A stretch of DNA of 64,000 nt, taken from the IMG/VR virus record IMGVR_UViG_3300021254_000020, positions 96,001-160,000 of that record; one strand, written 5' to 3'. The notes beneath the pieces were generated by a model. It ran no database searches and was not told the DNA's origin. It saw only the letters and a list, made by a program, of their open reading frames with translations. Positions 25,942 through 35,145 of the stretch are shown here, piece after piece. Numbering within the stretch: position 1 is the first letter of the stretch; each line of letters opens with the position of its first letter. Position numbers and translations under genes: made by a program. This DNA is from a virus (lineage: Duplodnaviria > Caudoviricetes).

Positions 25942-26023
25942 TGACGGAACTACTCAGACTCGCACTGAGATTCTCAGGGAAAAATTGGCAAAACCTGAGC
26001 TTCTACTATTGAATTATAGTTCC
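25942..26023 (-). ncRNA. tRNA-like element with an expanded 15-nt anticodon loop containing TTGCCAA and a TGCGAGT T-loop
   Basis: Acceptor GGAACTA/TAGTTCC, D-arm TTC/GAA, anticodon stem TCAGG/CCTGA, T-stem CTCAG/CTGAG; ends GTCA rather than NCCA. Confidence 0.7.
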
Positions 26024-26192: not shown

Positions 26193-26231
26193 AAAAAAGA
26201 AGAAGAATAGGTGATCAGACTATCTTCTTCT
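26193..26231 (-). terminator. Intrinsic terminator of the large ncRNA candidate
   Basis: AGAAGAAGATAG...CTATTCTTCTTC followed by TTTTTT on minus strand. Confidence 0.7.
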
Positions 26232-26235
26232 CATT

Positions 26236-26627
26236 CTCGGACGTCCCAAATATGACCATGTATCCCAAGCCTACCCGACACAACAGAGTTATCTCTGTCT
26301 GTTGCCGGCTTAATTTATAGACAAAAGAACATCCGAACTAGTTAAGGAATTGTAACCAGGTGACTAATTTGTTTTAATCAATCCCTTCATACTTCCAGTA
26401 CTACTGTATAGCATGGCCCGCACCATTCGCGGTTCACGGAATCAAACTAGTGCACCAGTCTTGGGTTCCTGGCACTTTGTCTTTTGGACTCATCTCTGCA
26501 CCTACAAGAAGGTCTCTGGTAATTATAAAATAATACTCGAGGATAGACTACTTGAAACCGCATCCTCATGAACGCATATTCATCTCTCCGTATGAATATA
26601 TCAAGAATTACATCAATCTCCCCGAGT
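26236..26627 (-). ncRNA. Candidate large structured non-coding RNA (~390 nt)
   Basis: Closing helix CTCGG/CCGAG, more than 10 internal complementary pairs, own promoter motif (26627-26638) and terminator, no SD-led ORF. Confidence 0.65.
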
Positions 26628-26638
26628 ACTATATTGTC
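26627..26638 (-). promoter_or_regulatory. Late-type promoter GACA-N6-TA placing +1 at the 5' end of the ncRNA
   Basis: Minus strand GACAATATAGTA followed directly by CTCGGGG. Confidence 0.6.
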
Positions 26639-26662: not shown

Positions 26663-26747
26663 TGGTGCGCCCGGAGGGGGTCGAACCCTCACTCACTTAA
26701 GAATACGCTCCTAAGGCGTACGTGTATACCTATTTCACCACGGGCGC
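26663..26747 (-). tRNA. trnL: tRNA-Leu (anticodon UAG), CCA encoded
   Basis: GCGCCCG acceptor, TACGC-CTTAGGA-GCGTA anticodon arm, long variable region, GAGGG-TTCGACC-CCCTC T-arm, ACCA end. Confidence 0.95.
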
Positions 26748-32445: not shown

Positions 32446-35145
32446 CTATCTGGCTCTAGTAAAATCGGCAATAATATTAGCGCCAGAATTTAGTAGTGCT
32501 TTATATTGCTCGATATTCTGAAGCCGTGTTATTATCAAGTCACAATTAGAGAGATCTAACTCTACGTTATGAGAGATAATAACTGCCTGATCAAAGTTCA
32601 GGATTTGCATAATAGTGTAAACTAAACTAAAGAACCTCAATCTATTGTCATTGTCGAGATTATTATCTACCTCGTCTAATCTGATTATATTGAATTTCTC
32701 AGATGCATTATGCAATAAGACGAAGCTAATAATCATGGATAATTGTCCTAGCTGAGAGGCACTCATCATACTTATATCTGGACGTATGCTACCAGTCTCA
32801 CTATCATAGAAGCTGATCAAGAAATCGTCTGCAGTGATCTCGAACTTCTCTAAAGAGAATCGTCCACCAAACATCATTGCCGATAACTGATTAACCATAC
32901 TGAGAATCTGATTCATAGTATAATCCATAATCTCAGCTTGAATACCATTGATCCCTACAGATTGTTTTACCATTTCGATTTTGTCGTATAATTGATTATA
33001 GTTATTATAATCTTTTCTATATTGCTCGAATAAAACCATTTGATACTTAGCTTGTTCTATCTGTTTTTGTAAGTCTGGTATAGATATCATAGACACATCA
33101 TTGTATTCTATATTAACGGAATTGAGATCTTCTTCATATTTCTTGTATAGCTCTACATTGTTCAACATAGAATCTATATCTTGAGAGATTTTCTTTATCT
33201 CTTCGGAAAACGTCTCATATTCGCGTTTAATAGCCTTTGCTGTGTTCAGATACTCGACCCTTTGTTTCACGCTTAAAATGGAATTTTGGGTATCTCTAAA
33301 TAAGGCGAGTGCGCTTTGTTTAGAACCCACTAACTCGTTCAATCTAGCACTTTTGTCTTCTACGGAACGTTGTAGCATCCAACTTTCTTTATTTTGATTT
33401 GTTAGACTAGATATCTTCTCTTTAAGAGTCATTATATCGGCACTAGTACTACTTATTAGATTAACGTAATTAGTATATTCCTTATAAGCAGATACGTTTA
33501 TATCTAACTGCTTTAGTCCTACTATACAATCTACGATATGTTTGGTATCCAATACATTTTCTGTATTTGGAAACTTCTTTAGTAGTTTGCTTAGACTAGA
33601 TATATATTTCACTATATCTCTGACTTGATGAACGCAAGATATTAGCTCATCTTGTTCCTTTAGCATCTTCTTAGCATCATCAAGAGAAGATACTAATTCT
33701 TCTCTCATCCTTCTAGCCTGTTCATACTGATCATCTGTCATCATAGAGTTTCTATCTCTTACTAGACTATTGATGAATGGACAGTCATCTAGATGATTAC
33801 AATCTTTAGGGATTTTAGCATAATCCTCAGTTCTATTTATTAGATCCATTTGTGTAGATATACTACTCTTAACCTCGTCTAGTTTCAGTTCTAGAGATGA
33901 TATTAGTTTAGAGTAGTCATTCACTTTAGGATCACAGTTAATGTACTGGATACTCTTAGATAACAATCCAGGAGTGAATTGGTTTCCTAATACACTAATA
34001 GTATTATTGAATCTCTCTATAGCTCCTACAGCTACAGTATATTCTCCCTCTGTAATATTATTATACTCATGAAATCCTAGCTTCTCAAAGCATTCGATAT
34101 AAAATTTCATCTTCTTCTCAGCTTGTTGTAATCTATTCTGAGTGTCTTCTAATAAACCAGGATCAAATAGGGATTTCAGCTTAATAGTATCAGCTTCTAG
34201 ATCACTTCTTAGATCAGATTCCATTTTAGTAATCTTATCTAACTCTTCTTTATAGTGTTCTAGTTTAGTCTCTAGCTGTATTTCTTCTTTCTCTTTTTCT
34301 TTTAATTCTAACTCATCAAAGTTCTTAGCCTCATCTGGAATATCATCTATTTTATTTTGCATATCTCTTCTCTTATTCAAGAGATCAGTATATATCTTTA
34401 TAGGACTACCATCCTTATCTAAGAGATTCATATTAGCTTTAATCTCTGATTGCTTAGCTAATAACTCATCTCTCTTTCTTTCTAGTATCTTTAGTTCATG
34501 ACCATTCTTATCTAGATTAGCTTTGATTACTTCTATATTTCCTAATTGAGATAATTTAGCATTTAATGCTGTTATCATAGATCTTAGAGTACTATGTTTA
34601 GCGGCTAGGGTTTTATACATTTTTGCATATGGAGCTATAGCACTAACTATAAGAGCCATAAACCGTTTCCTTTCTCCTGGCTTCATAGCCCCAATACCTT
34701 TACTATTGGCTGATATAGCTGATAGTGCCATATAATCATCATTGATATCTAATAGGTCGCAGATGATATCTTTACCACTAGTCATATTACCATTTGGGTT
34801 TAATTCTATTACATTCCCATCTGGATATATTCTTTGGATAAAGCATTTACTACCTTTGCTTCTAGTTGTTCTTCCCTTATATCCATTATAGGTTATAGCT
34901 AATATGGTACCATCATTGAGATCAAACTCAATAGTCTTAATGATATCAGTGTCCTCCATGAATACATTTGGATTTGAAAAGAATGGATGCAATTCGTTTA
35001 TTATGCTTGATTTACCACTACCATTCTCAGATCTGATTACTACTATACGATTCTTACACTTAGTAAAATCGATATTGATCTCAGATCTATTCATTGCATT
35101 CATGATATTAGCATATCCTCTTAGATATAACCGTCGTAATCTCAT
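32446..35145 (-). CDS. sbcC: SbcC/Rad50-like SMC ATPase (recombination nuclease subunit)
   Basis: Walker A SENGSGKS, long coiled coils with central Cys hook (CNHLDDCPF), signature MSASQ, Walker B/D-loop IIRLDEVDNNLD, ISHN. Confidence 0.9.
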   Translation of the reverse strand: MRLRRLYLRGYANIMNAMNRSEINIDFTKCKNRIVVIRSENGSGKSSIINELHPFFSNPNVFMEDTDIIKTIEFDLNDGTILAITYNGYKGRTTRSKGSKCFIQRIYPDGNVIELNPNGNMTSGKDIICDLLDINDDYMALSAISANSKGIGAMKPGERKRFMALIVSAIAPYAKMYKTLAAKHSTLRSMITALNAKLSQLGNIEVIKANLDKNGHELKILERKRDELLAKQSEIKANMNLLDKDGSPIKIYTDLLNKRRDMQNKIDDIPDEAKNFDELELKEKEKEEIQLETKLEHYKEELDKITKMESDLRSDLEADTIKLKSLFDPGLLEDTQNRLQQAEKKMKFYIECFEKLGFHEYNNITEGEYTVAVGAIERFNNTISVLGNQFTPGLLSKSIQYINCDPKVNDYSKLISSLELKLDEVKSSISTQMDLINRTEDYAKIPKDCNHLDDCPFINSLVRDRNSMMTDDQYEQARRMREELVSSLDDAKKMLKEQDELISCVHQVRDIVKYISSLSKLLKKFPNTENVLDTKHIVDCIVGLKQLDINVSAYKEYTNYVNLISSTSADIMTLKEKISSLTNQNKESWMLQRSVEDKSARLNELVGSKQSALALFRDTQNSILSVKQRVEYLNTAKAIKREYETFSEEIKKISQDIDSMLNNVELYKKYEEDLNSVNIEYNDVSMISIPDLQKQIEQAKYQMVLFEQYRKDYNNYNQLYDKIEMVKQSVGINGIQAEIMDYTMNQILSMVNQLSAMMFGGRFSLEKFEITADDFLISFYDSETGSIRPDISMMSASQLGQLSMIISFVLLHNASEKFNIIRLDEVDNNLDNDNRLRFFSLVYTIMQILNFDQAVIISHNVELDLSNCDLIITRLQNIEQYKALLNSGANIIADFTRAR

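What the first reader, a model, noticed from the sequence alone, without database searches (positions are those of the whole stretch)
26193..26638. ~400-nt ornate ncRNA candidate with its own promoter and terminator next to tRNA-Leu
Seen on the minus strand: GACA-N6-TA puts +1 at 26627, one base before a closing helix CTCGG/CCGAG (26622-26626 with 26236-26240), and a terminator follows at once. Internal pairings include ATATTCAT/ATGAATAT, GAGGAT/ATCCTC, AAAAGACA/TGTTCTTTT, CTAGTT/AACTAG, CCGC/GCGG, CAGT/ACTG, AAGGGATTG/CAATTCCTT, AAGCC/GGCTT and CAGAG/CTCTG. Further long-range, potentially crossing pairs are GCCATG/CATGGT, GTCC/GGAC and ACCAG/CTGGT. There is no SD-led ORF. Known: large structured RNAs such as GOLLD and ROOL occur near tRNAs in phages of Bacillota. 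It lacks tmRNA ends and the RNase P GAGGAAAGUCC/ACCCGGC core. Inference: a late-expressed large RNA, either a divergent member of those classes or a new class, possibly packaged or catalytic.
Basis: partly seen in the sequence, partly recalled or inferred. Interest (0 to 1): 0.85.

Follow-up and report, generated by a model that had tools for sequence, protein, structure and literature searches.

The report
New pseudoknotted RNA in rumen jumbo phages
A roughly 400-base stretch next to a tRNA gene in a 266-kb rumen phage encodes a conserved, intricately folded non-coding RNA that matches no described RNA family; it adds a new example to the small set of large, ornate phage RNAs whose function is still unknown.

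Summary
The candidate is real. On the minus strand, 26627 to about 26193, lies a single-copy non-coding gene. Five further distinct full-length versions, 60-86% alike, occur in rumen metagenome contigs of related jumbo phages.

Seven helices placed on an uncurated alignment are 91% paired, against 30-44% when the partners are slid. Seventeen pairs change on both sides, against 7.5 in shuffles. Two long-range pseudoknots, PKa and PK2, also covary.

Only the minus strand folds better than shuffles (z -3.4 against -0.8). No ORF is conserved. No Rfam family matches any of the six versions, so ROOL, GOLLD, RNase P, tmRNA and group I all fail.

Its closing helix and its three long-range pairs do not hold, because their strands pair elsewhere with covariation.

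The AACA-N6-TA motif fits the AR9 late-promoter consensus. An extended form recurs four times in the genome, each time before non-coding sequence.

Function is unknown. My best guess is a late, trans-acting scaffold RNA that makes RNA-RNA contacts through three invariant loops, one of them palindromic.

Expression could not be tested. The scan has noted this stretch only on this same genome, not on other DNA.

The parts
26627..26638 (-). Promoter-like motif (G/A)ACA-N6-T-A, with the predicted +1 at 26627
   Evidence: The motif is read directly. It is conserved as AACA-N6-TA in L017, L018, L029, L030 and L031. It fits the AR9 late-promoter consensus A(-11)ACA-N6-U-A/G(+1) (PMC7598289). The extended form occurs four times in the genome, all on the coding strand and all before non-coding sequence. 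No start site has been mapped.
26193..26627 (-). Whole RNA (about 435 nt including the 3' hairpin and U-run)
   Evidence: Six distinct homologs were found. The copy is single in the genome. No Rfam family matches. Fold z is -3.38.
26535..26627 (-). 5' domain: helix P1 (26627-26620 with 26542-26535) closing a junction with hairpins hp1 (26599-26576, conserved purine-rich loop) and hp2 (26575-26560)
   Evidence: P1 is 92-94% paired, with two pairs changed on both sides. In hp1, 6-7 of 8 pairs are changed on both sides.
26487..26514 (-). Hairpin Py, with a variable stem and a conserved loop at 26505-26497 whose 3' six bases, containing GGUG, are invariant
   Evidence: The stems differ in every lineage but keep pairing. 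The invariant loop columns are listed.
26476..26482 (-). Pseudoknot PKa, 5' strand
   Evidence: It pairs with 26325-26319. All 42 cells are paired, and one position runs A-U (3 sequences), G-U (2) and G-C (1).
26319..26325 (-). Pseudoknot PKa, 3' strand, lying between helix b and helix P8a
   Evidence: The pairing crosses helix b, so it is a true pseudoknot.
26452..26475 (-). Hairpin H1 (7 bp); its loop carries the 5' strand of PK2 (26465-26460)
   Evidence: On alignment A4 it is 95% paired, against 19-45% when slid, and 5 of 7 pairs change on both sides.
26264..26269 (-). Pseudoknot PK2, 3' strand, in the 3' domain just after a conserved UAG
   Evidence: In all six homologs the H1 loop is complementary to this homologous site through five different sequence solutions. 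All 34 cells are paired and 4 of 7 positions change on both sides. Cognate pairings beat swapped ones in all but 11 of 720 permutations.
26338..26450 (-). Central multi-branch domain closed by Pz (26450-26445 with 26343-26338). It holds variable hairpins hpA (26440-26417) and hpB (26415-26388) and hairpin Pw (26387-26344), whose 9-nt loop motif at 26367-26359, containing CACC, is nearly invariant
   Evidence: In L018 every Pz pair is changed relative to the others yet still pairs.
26237..26336 (-). 3' domain closed by helix b (26336-26327 with 26246-26237, 10 bp). It contains the PKa 3' strand, P8a (26316-26313 with 26251-26248), a variable insert and the PK2 3' strand
   Evidence: Helix b is 97-100% paired, with 4-5 pairs changed on both sides.
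26193..26232 (-). 3' hairpin P9, loop at 26219-26211 with the invariant palindrome UGAUCA, then a U-run at 26198-26193
   Evidence: The stem varies, the loop palindrome is present in all six, and the U-run is present in five of six (not in L018).
26663..26747 (-). tRNA-Leu (anticodon UAG), 36 nt upstream; context, not part of the RNA
   Evidence: A tRNA-Leu sits at this place in L017, L025, L029, L030 and L031 but not in L018.

Best explanation
This is a gene for a stable non-coding RNA of about 390-430 nt that belongs to no described family.

Shown:
- The sequence is conserved in a small clade of rumen jumbo phages.
- The RNA-sense (minus) strand folds into a 5' three-way-junction domain, a hairpin with an invariant loop, a central multi-branch domain and a 3' domain.
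- Two long-range pseudoknots tie these together. PKa joins the middle of the RNA to the junction of the 3' domain. PK2 joins the H1 loop to the 3' domain.

Inferred:
- It is transcribed on its own from an AR9-type late promoter of the phage's multisubunit RNA polymerase, starting at 26627.
- Transcription ends at the 3' hairpin and U-run.

Guess at mechanism:
- It acts in trans as a compact scaffold RNA, as ROOL and GOLLD do.
- It would use three invariant exposed loops for RNA-RNA contacts.
- GGUG in the Py loop could pair with CACC in the Pw loop, within one molecule or between molecules.
- The palindromic UGAUCA loop of the 3' hairpin could form a kissing dimer.

My odds for each part:
- A real structured RNA gene: about 0.9.
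- A new family: about 0.85.
- The late promoter: about 0.6.
- The self-associating scaffold mechanism: about 0.3.

The overall confidence given for this explanation weighs the well-supported gene-and-fold claims against the weakly supported mechanism.
For: Homologs:
- Five further distinct full-length homologs and two partial ones were reached through flanking proteins.

Covariation:
- RNAalifold on the raw alignment predicts 84 pairs, 28 of them with compensatory change.
- My seven helices on the same uncurated alignment are 91.2% paired, against 30-44% when slid.
- Seventeen of those pairs change on both sides, against 7.5 (sd 1.9) in shuffles, with 0 of 500 shuffles reaching that.
- The curated eight-helix model is 97.9% paired, with 31 of 57 pairs changed on both sides, against 13.8 in shuffles (0 of 2000).
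- PK2 is solved by five different sequences at the same site.

Other support:
- The fold z-score is -3.4 on the minus strand against -0.8 on the plus strand. Homologs give -2.3 and -2.4.
- The many G-U pairs work on the minus strand only.
- No ORF is conserved, and close homologs differ by 1-nt indels.
- The promoter motif is conserved even in L018, where the upstream neighbour differs.
- It fits the published AR9 consensus.
- AACA-N6-TA is followed by an SD-led start in 15 of 96 cases, against 89 of 1215 for control motifs.
- The extended form stands before tRNA-Leu and before two other non-coding units.
- The loops are invariant while their stems vary.
- ROOL and GOLLD share the phage context near tRNAs, the pseudoknots and the kissing loops (PMC12286853).
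Against: - There is no expression evidence, and neither end has been mapped.
- Only six sequences are known. Three of them (window, L025, L029) are close, so the shuffle statistics overstate independence, and the curated alignment leans towards the model.
- The loop-loop and dimer contacts involve only invariant bases, so covariation cannot test them.
- L018 lacks the U-run after the 3' hairpin.
- The family is absent from two complete related jumbo phages, so it is not essential to the group.
- Whether this phage's polymerase uses the AR9 motif is not shown. Enrichment of the simple motif before genes is only about twofold.
Confidence: 0.55

Rival explanations
1. It is a free-standing ribozyme with a group-I-like core. 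The order of elements matches P1/P2, P2.1, P3, P4-P5, P6, P7, P3', P8, P7', P9 of group I introns. The elements are the 5' domain, a hairpin, the PKa 5' strand, hairpin H1, the Pz domain, the b 5' strand, the PKa 3' strand directly after it, the P8-like domain, the b 3' strand and a terminal hairpin. It would be an intron derivative that no longer sits in a gene and catalyses some other RNA reaction.
For: The topology follows from the covarying helices. The fold is pseudoknotted and strongly constrained, with invariant unpaired nucleotides near the PKa/b/P8a junction. Group I introns are common in phage genomes (established knowledge).
Against: - Rfam's group I model gives no hit at E 10 on any of the six homologs.
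- Helix b is a continuous 10-bp helix in five of six homologs, without the bulged G-binding site.
- Only 0-1 nt lies where J8/7 should be, and 0 nt where J3/4 should be.
- H1 has no J4/5 internal loop.
- There are no flanking exons. The upstream side is a complete tRNA or a terminator, the downstream side is non-coding.
- There is no U-G pair at the putative 5' junction.
Confidence: 0.1
2. It is the RNA part of a ribonucleoprotein, or a decoy or sponge. The invariant loops would be binding sites for a phage or host protein, or for tRNA 3' ends, since the GGUG-containing loop is complementary to the discriminator-CC end of the neighbouring tRNA-Leu. The RNA would sequester or guide that partner late in infection, for example to blunt a host defence that acts on tRNAs or to help tRNA handling.
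For: It lies in an RNA island next to tRNA-Leu and an odd tRNA-like element. The single-stranded motifs are invariant. The complementarity of the Py loop to the 3' end of the tRNA is read.
Against: No protein gene is consistently linked. The upstream neighbour differs among homologs: a 63-aa ORF, a 109-aa ORF or an HNH endonuclease. The flanking proteins have no informative family. L018 has the RNA without the adjacent tRNA. No target beyond chance was found in the genome for the loop sequences.
Confidence: 0.17
3. It is not an independent RNA. It would be a transcribed spacer or leader of a tRNA/ncRNA operon that is removed by processing, or a DNA-level element such as an origin or a packaging site whose palindromes act as DNA.
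For: It lies between a tRNA and another non-coding block. The loop palindrome contains a GATC site. Transcript ends are not mapped.
Against: Spacers do not keep two covarying long-range pseudoknots and invariant loops at 60-86% identity. The pairing depends on G-U pairs and is strand-specific. The promoter-like motif and the 3' hairpin bracket it in all homologs, including L018, which has a terminator hairpin instead of a tRNA upstream.
Confidence: 0.05

Closest known systems
ROOL and GOLLD RNAs (Rfam RF03087, RF01998)
   Same: Both are large, ornate, pseudoknotted RNAs of unknown function encoded by phages and prophages, often beside tRNA genes. ROOL was first found in rumen samples. Both have conserved loops that form kissing contacts (PMC12286853). 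The candidate shares the context (a rumen phage, next to a tRNA), the pseudoknots and the invariant loops.
   Different: There is no sequence or structure match. Neither model reaches E 10 on any of the six homologs. The candidate is shorter (about 390-430 nt, against about 580 and over 800). Its helix layout is different, and self-assembly is not shown.
Group I intron catalytic core
   Same: The order of helices is the same and so is the crossing P3/P7-type pseudoknot. The 5' strand of the P7-like helix b is followed directly by the 3' strand of the P3-like PKa, then a P8-like domain, then the b 3' strand and a terminal hairpin.
   Different: There is no Rfam hit, no J8/7, J3/4 or J4/5 joining regions, no bulged G-binding helix, no exons, and the RNA has its own promoter-like motif and terminator.
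phi29-family packaging RNA (pRNA)
   Same: pRNA is a phage-encoded structured RNA whose conserved complementary loops pair between molecules to build an oligomer (my own knowledge, not checked here). The candidate has a GGUG loop, a CACC loop and a palindromic loop that could do the same.
   Different: pRNA is about 170 nt, has no long-range pseudoknots, and occurs in small podophages at a genome end. There is no sequence likeness. A role in packaging is pure speculation here.
Stable RNAs C and D in the tRNA cluster of phage T4
   Same: They are phage non-coding RNAs of unknown function encoded beside phage tRNA genes (my own knowledge, not checked here).
   Different: The T4 species are about 120-140 nt, are processed out of tRNA precursors and are not known to be pseudoknotted. 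The candidate appears to have its own promoter.

Membership tests
ROOL RNA (RF03087) | Match to the family covariance model | tested here: not met
   cmscan with permissive filters, E up to 10, on the window region and on five homolog loci lists only tRNAs and chance hits.
ROOL / GOLLD | Encoded in a phage or prophage near tRNA genes | tested here: met
   The host genome is a 266-kb phage. tRNA-Leu lies 36 nt upstream. This context is shared but does not define membership.
GOLLD RNA (RF01998) | Match to the family covariance model, including its conserved 3' half | tested here: not met
   No hit.
Group I intron (RF00028) | Match to the covariance model | tested here: not met
   No hit at E 10 in six homologs. 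The Rfam model is known to miss some subgroups (my own knowledge).
Group I intron | P3/P7 pseudoknot with P7 5' strand adjacent to P3 3' strand, followed by P8 | tested here: met
   PKa, b and P8a have this arrangement. This is a resemblance in topology only.
Group I intron | G-binding P7 with a bulge, and J8/7, J3/4 and J4/5 joining strands | tested here: not met
   Helix b is 10 continuous pairs in five of six homologs. There are 0-1 nt between P8a and b, and 0 nt between PKa and H1. H1 is an uninterrupted 7-bp helix.
Group I intron | Inserted in a host gene with joinable exons | tested here: not met
   The flanks are a complete tRNA, or a terminator in L018, on one side and non-coding sequence on the other.
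Bacterial RNase P RNA | Covariance-model match and the conserved P4 strands (CR-I and CR-V) | tested here: not met
   No hit to any RNase P model. The conserved strands of PKa differ from the P4 consensus, and the helix order differs.
tmRNA | tRNA-like ends and a tag reading frame | tested here: not met
   ARAGORN finds none. There is no Rfam hit on the RNA body, and no conserved frame.
AR9-type late promoter of jumbo-phage non-virion RNA polymerase | A(-11)ACA, six bases, T(-1), A or G(+1) | tested here: met
   The sequence fits in all homologs, with G at -11 in the window and L025. The consensus is from PMC7598289.
AR9-type late promoter | Transcription starts there, late in infection | not testable with these tools
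Intrinsic terminator | Stable hairpin followed by a U-run | tested here: met
   Hairpin at 26232-26197 and a U-run to 26193. The U-run is present in five of six homologs and absent in L018.

The most novel reading that the evidence does not exclude
The RNA is a new class of self-assembling or catalytic phage RNA. One form would be a compact double-pseudoknot fold that dimerises or oligomerises through its invariant palindromic loop and its complementary GGUG and CACC loops, giving a third kind of natural RNA-only assembly beside ROOL and GOLLD. The other form would be a free-standing descendant of a group I intron that has taken on a new reaction.
Probability: 0.25. Interest if true: 0.9.

Novelty: new variant of a known kind. 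Interest (0 to 1): 0.72.

Why it matters
Only a handful of large, intricately folded bacterial and phage RNAs are known, and none of ROOL, GOLLD, OLE or raiA has an understood function. Two of them turned out to form RNA-only cages.

This adds an unrelated family of about 400 nt with the same phage, tRNA-adjacent context. It has two covarying long-range pseudoknots and a core topology like that of group I introns. That gives an independent case for asking what such RNAs do for phages.

It is also small enough for probing and cryo-EM. In addition, it points to a promoter variant in this phage that appears reserved for non-coding RNA genes.

Tried and rejected
- Phage GenBank collection by blastn: no match.
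- IMG/VR by flanking proteins and by DNA patterns: only distant relatives without the RNA, or chance hits.
- The single metagenome pattern scan gave one chance hit in a coding region, L024.
- The scan of genome contigs gave 120 or more chance hits. None extends beyond the pattern when scored with an HMM of the full alignment.
- Related jumbo phages G001-G004 (about 60% identity in RNA polymerase beta) have no copy by BLAST, by pattern with mismatches, or by covariance model R1. More distant relatives of the flanking 210-aa protein have coding sequence at the syntenic place.
- A typical early promoter of this phage was considered. Its consensus is clear from about 30 copies. The partial match upstream of the RNA is not conserved in homologs, so I rejected it.
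- Trans targets for the three invariant loops were sought in the genome. Nothing exceeded chance.
- A box C/D-like reading of the short motifs near the two ends was considered and dropped, because L029 and L018 lack the 5' motif.
I redid the analysis from coordinates.

Full report
**What the window is.** The window is bases 96001-160000 of a 266,420-base virus record rated complete. Nearly all genes lie on the minus strand. It encodes a phage-type multisubunit RNA polymerase beta subunit, a NAD-dependent ligase and an SbcC-like protein. It is therefore a jumbo phage with its own transcription apparatus. The contigs that carry close relatives come from sheep and cattle rumen metagenomes.

**The observation.**
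- tRNA-Leu (anticodon UAG) lies at 26747-26663 on the minus strand.
- It is followed by an AT-rich stretch, the motif GACA-N6-TA at 26638-26627, about 400 nt without a credible ORF, and a strong hairpin with a U-run at 26232-26193.
- The minus strand folds to -132.6 kcal/mol, z = -3.38 against dinucleotide shuffles, with no shuffle as good.
- The plus strand of the same bases gives z = -0.78.
- Rfam finds only the tRNA at curated thresholds.
- With permissive filters and E up to 10, Rfam finds nothing on the RNA body. The one other real hit is a second, odd tRNA-like element at 26023-25945.

**Finding relatives.**
- BLAST against phage GenBank records found nothing. The four IMG/VR relatives found through the polymerase, at about 60% identity, lack the RNA.
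- Relatives came from the flanking proteins. The 210-aa protein upstream (27679-27047) and the 107-aa protein downstream (25828-25505) have homologs in metagenome assemblies. I fetched the contigs that encode them.
- This gave five further distinct full-length versions of the RNA: L025 (the same as L026), L029, L030, L031 and L018.
- L025 and L029 are 86% and 83% identical to the window by BLAST, and L030 and L031 about 70%. L018 is the most distant: BLAST does not find it, and its neighbouring protein is 61% identical.
- There are two partial versions (L017, L028) and two identical copies (L011, L012).
- In L018 the upstream tRNA is replaced by a terminator hairpin, yet the promoter-like motif and the whole RNA are kept.
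- More distant relatives of the 210-aa protein have coding sequence at that place.
- The family is thus confined, as far as these collections show, to a narrow clade of rumen jumbo phages. It is single-copy in this genome.

**It is not coding.** The longest ORFs differ in strand, frame and position among the six versions. Close homologs differ by single-base indels.

**Structure from comparison.**
- RNAalifold on the raw MAFFT alignment predicts 84 pairs, 28 with compensatory change.
- Reading the six sequences side by side gave a model that I then tested in two ways.
- First, on the uncurated alignment A2, seven helices (50 pairs) are 91.2% paired. When the 3' partners are slid by 1-3 columns they are 30-44% paired.
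- In that test 17 pairs change on both sides, against 7.5 (sd 1.9) in column shuffles, with 0 of 500 shuffles reaching that. H1 alone on alignment A4 gives 95% paired and 5 of 7 pairs with double changes.
- Second, on a coordinate-based, structure-guided alignment of eight helices (57 pairs), 320 of 327 cells are standard pairs. There, 31 pairs change on both sides, against 13.8 (sd 2.3) in shuffles, 0 of 2000.
- With only six sequences, three of them close, these numbers overstate independence. The pattern is nonetheless consistent in every helix.
- The unconstrained minimum-energy fold of the most distant member, L018, recovers most of the same helices.

**The fold, in window coordinates.**
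- P1 (26627-20 with 26542-35) closes a junction with hairpins hp1 (26599-26576) and hp2 (26575-26560).
- After a linker comes hairpin Py (26514-26487), with a variable stem and a conserved loop containing GGUG.
- Next comes the PKa 5' strand (26482-76).
- Hairpin H1 (26475-52) follows directly.
- Helix Pz (26450-45 with 26343-38) encloses two variable hairpins and hairpin Pw. The loop of Pw holds a nearly invariant 9-nt motif containing CACC (26367-59).
- The helix b 5' strand (26336-27) is next, followed at once by the PKa 3' strand (26325-19).
- Then come P8a (26316-13 with 26251-48), a variable insert, a conserved UAG and the PK2 3' strand (26269-64).
- The helix b 3' strand (26246-37) closes the 3' domain.
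- Last is the 3' hairpin P9 (26232-26197), whose loop carries the invariant palindrome UGAUCA.

**The two pseudoknots.**
- PKa crosses helix b. It is fully paired in all six versions, with one position running A-U, G-U, G-C.
- PK2 joins the H1 loop to the 3' domain. It is complementary in all six through five different sequences at the same site, with three pair types at one position.
- Swapping PK2 partners between sequences is worse in all but 11 of 720 permutations.
- Many pairs are G-U, so the structure exists only on the minus-strand transcript.

- Supported: hp1, Pz, Pw and the small variable hairpins.
- The A-rich/U-rich long pairing is real but in another register (PKa).
- The 5'/3' closing helix is not supported. 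Its 5' strand is in P1 and its 3' strand is in helix b, and in L030 and L031 the 3' strand changes together with its internal partner while the 5' end does not.
- The three 'crossing' pairs clash with H1, with helix b, or are broken in L025 and L030.

**Ends of the RNA.**
- The motif upstream fits the published AR9 late-promoter consensus A(-11)ACA-N6-U-A/G(+1) (PMC7598289).
- It is conserved in every homolog, together with an A-rich tract further upstream.
- In this genome AACA-N6-TA is followed by a Shine-Dalgarno-led start 15-90 nt downstream in 15 of 96 cases, against 89 of 1215 for eight control motifs.
- An extended form of the motif occurs only four times, all on the coding strand. The four sites are before tRNA-Leu, before this RNA, and before two other non-coding units with terminators elsewhere in the genome.
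- The phage's abundant early-promoter motif is different, and the partial match upstream of the RNA is not conserved in homologs.
- Late, independent transcription from 26627 is therefore a reasonable inference, not a demonstrated fact.
- The 3' hairpin is followed by a U-run in five of six versions. Its conserved loop says it is more than a terminator.
- I could not obtain any read data.

**What it is like.**
- No Rfam family matches any of the six versions. It is therefore not a member of ROOL, GOLLD, RNase P, tmRNA, group I or any other curated family.
- In context and style it is closest to ROOL and GOLLD. Both are large pseudoknotted RNAs of phages and prophages, often beside tRNAs, and they use conserved loops for contacts between molecules (PMC12286853).
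- In helix order it mirrors the group I intron core, including the P3/P7-type pseudoknot.
- It lacks the joining strands, the bulged G-binding helix and any exon context, so membership fails.
- A literature search found no description of such an RNA in jumbo phages.

**Mechanism.**
- Function is not known. I commit to a trans-acting, late, compact scaffold RNA that uses its three invariant loops for RNA-RNA contacts, possibly assembling with itself through the palindromic loop. I give that about 0.3.
- The rivals are a protein- or tRNA-binding RNP or decoy (0.17), a group-I-like ribozyme (0.1), and a spacer or DNA element (0.05).
- The loops are invariant, so covariation cannot test these contacts, and no trans target stands out in the genome.

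**Verdict.** This is a real, new family of large structured phage RNA. The finding is worth experimental follow-up, but it rests on six sequences and no expression data.

Noticed in passing
window 25945-26023 (-): A tRNA-like cloverleaf scores 44.7 bits against the Rfam tRNA model, with an 11-nt insertion in the anticodon loop. ARAGORN does not call it. It is conserved in L018 and L025, together with the whole non-coding block 26170-25880 that follows the RNA.
   Followed up: partly
G000 60321 downstream to about 60130 (-), outside the window: The same extended promoter variant as before this RNA and tRNA-Leu is followed by about 190-240 nt of non-coding sequence that ends in a strong hairpin. 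It may be another stable RNA gene.
   Followed up: no
G000 265208 downstream to about 265030 (-), outside the window: This is the fourth copy of the extended promoter variant. It is followed by about 125 nt whose two ends form an 11-bp closing helix, then a terminator hairpin.
   Followed up: no
whole genome G000, e.g. window 28995, 35867, 44776 (-): The most enriched non-SD motif between genes is a 10-nt AT-rich box followed after four bases by TG. It has about 30 well-matched copies on the coding strand and is presumably the early promoter of the virion polymerase.
   Followed up: partly
L025:1048-1563 and L026, against window 26969-26778: The slot just upstream of tRNA-Leu is variable. It holds a 63-aa ORF in the window, a 109-aa ORF in L017 and L031, and a 171-aa HNH endonuclease in L025 and L026. 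This suggests homing-endonuclease traffic next to the RNA island.
   Followed up: no
L031:1393-1565: One homolog carries two tRNA genes in tandem upstream of the RNA instead of one.
   Followed up: no
G000 33069-33144 (+), outside the window: Covariance model R1 gives a weak match (19.5 bits, E 0.006) on the non-coding-sense strand. It is probably chance.
   Followed up: no
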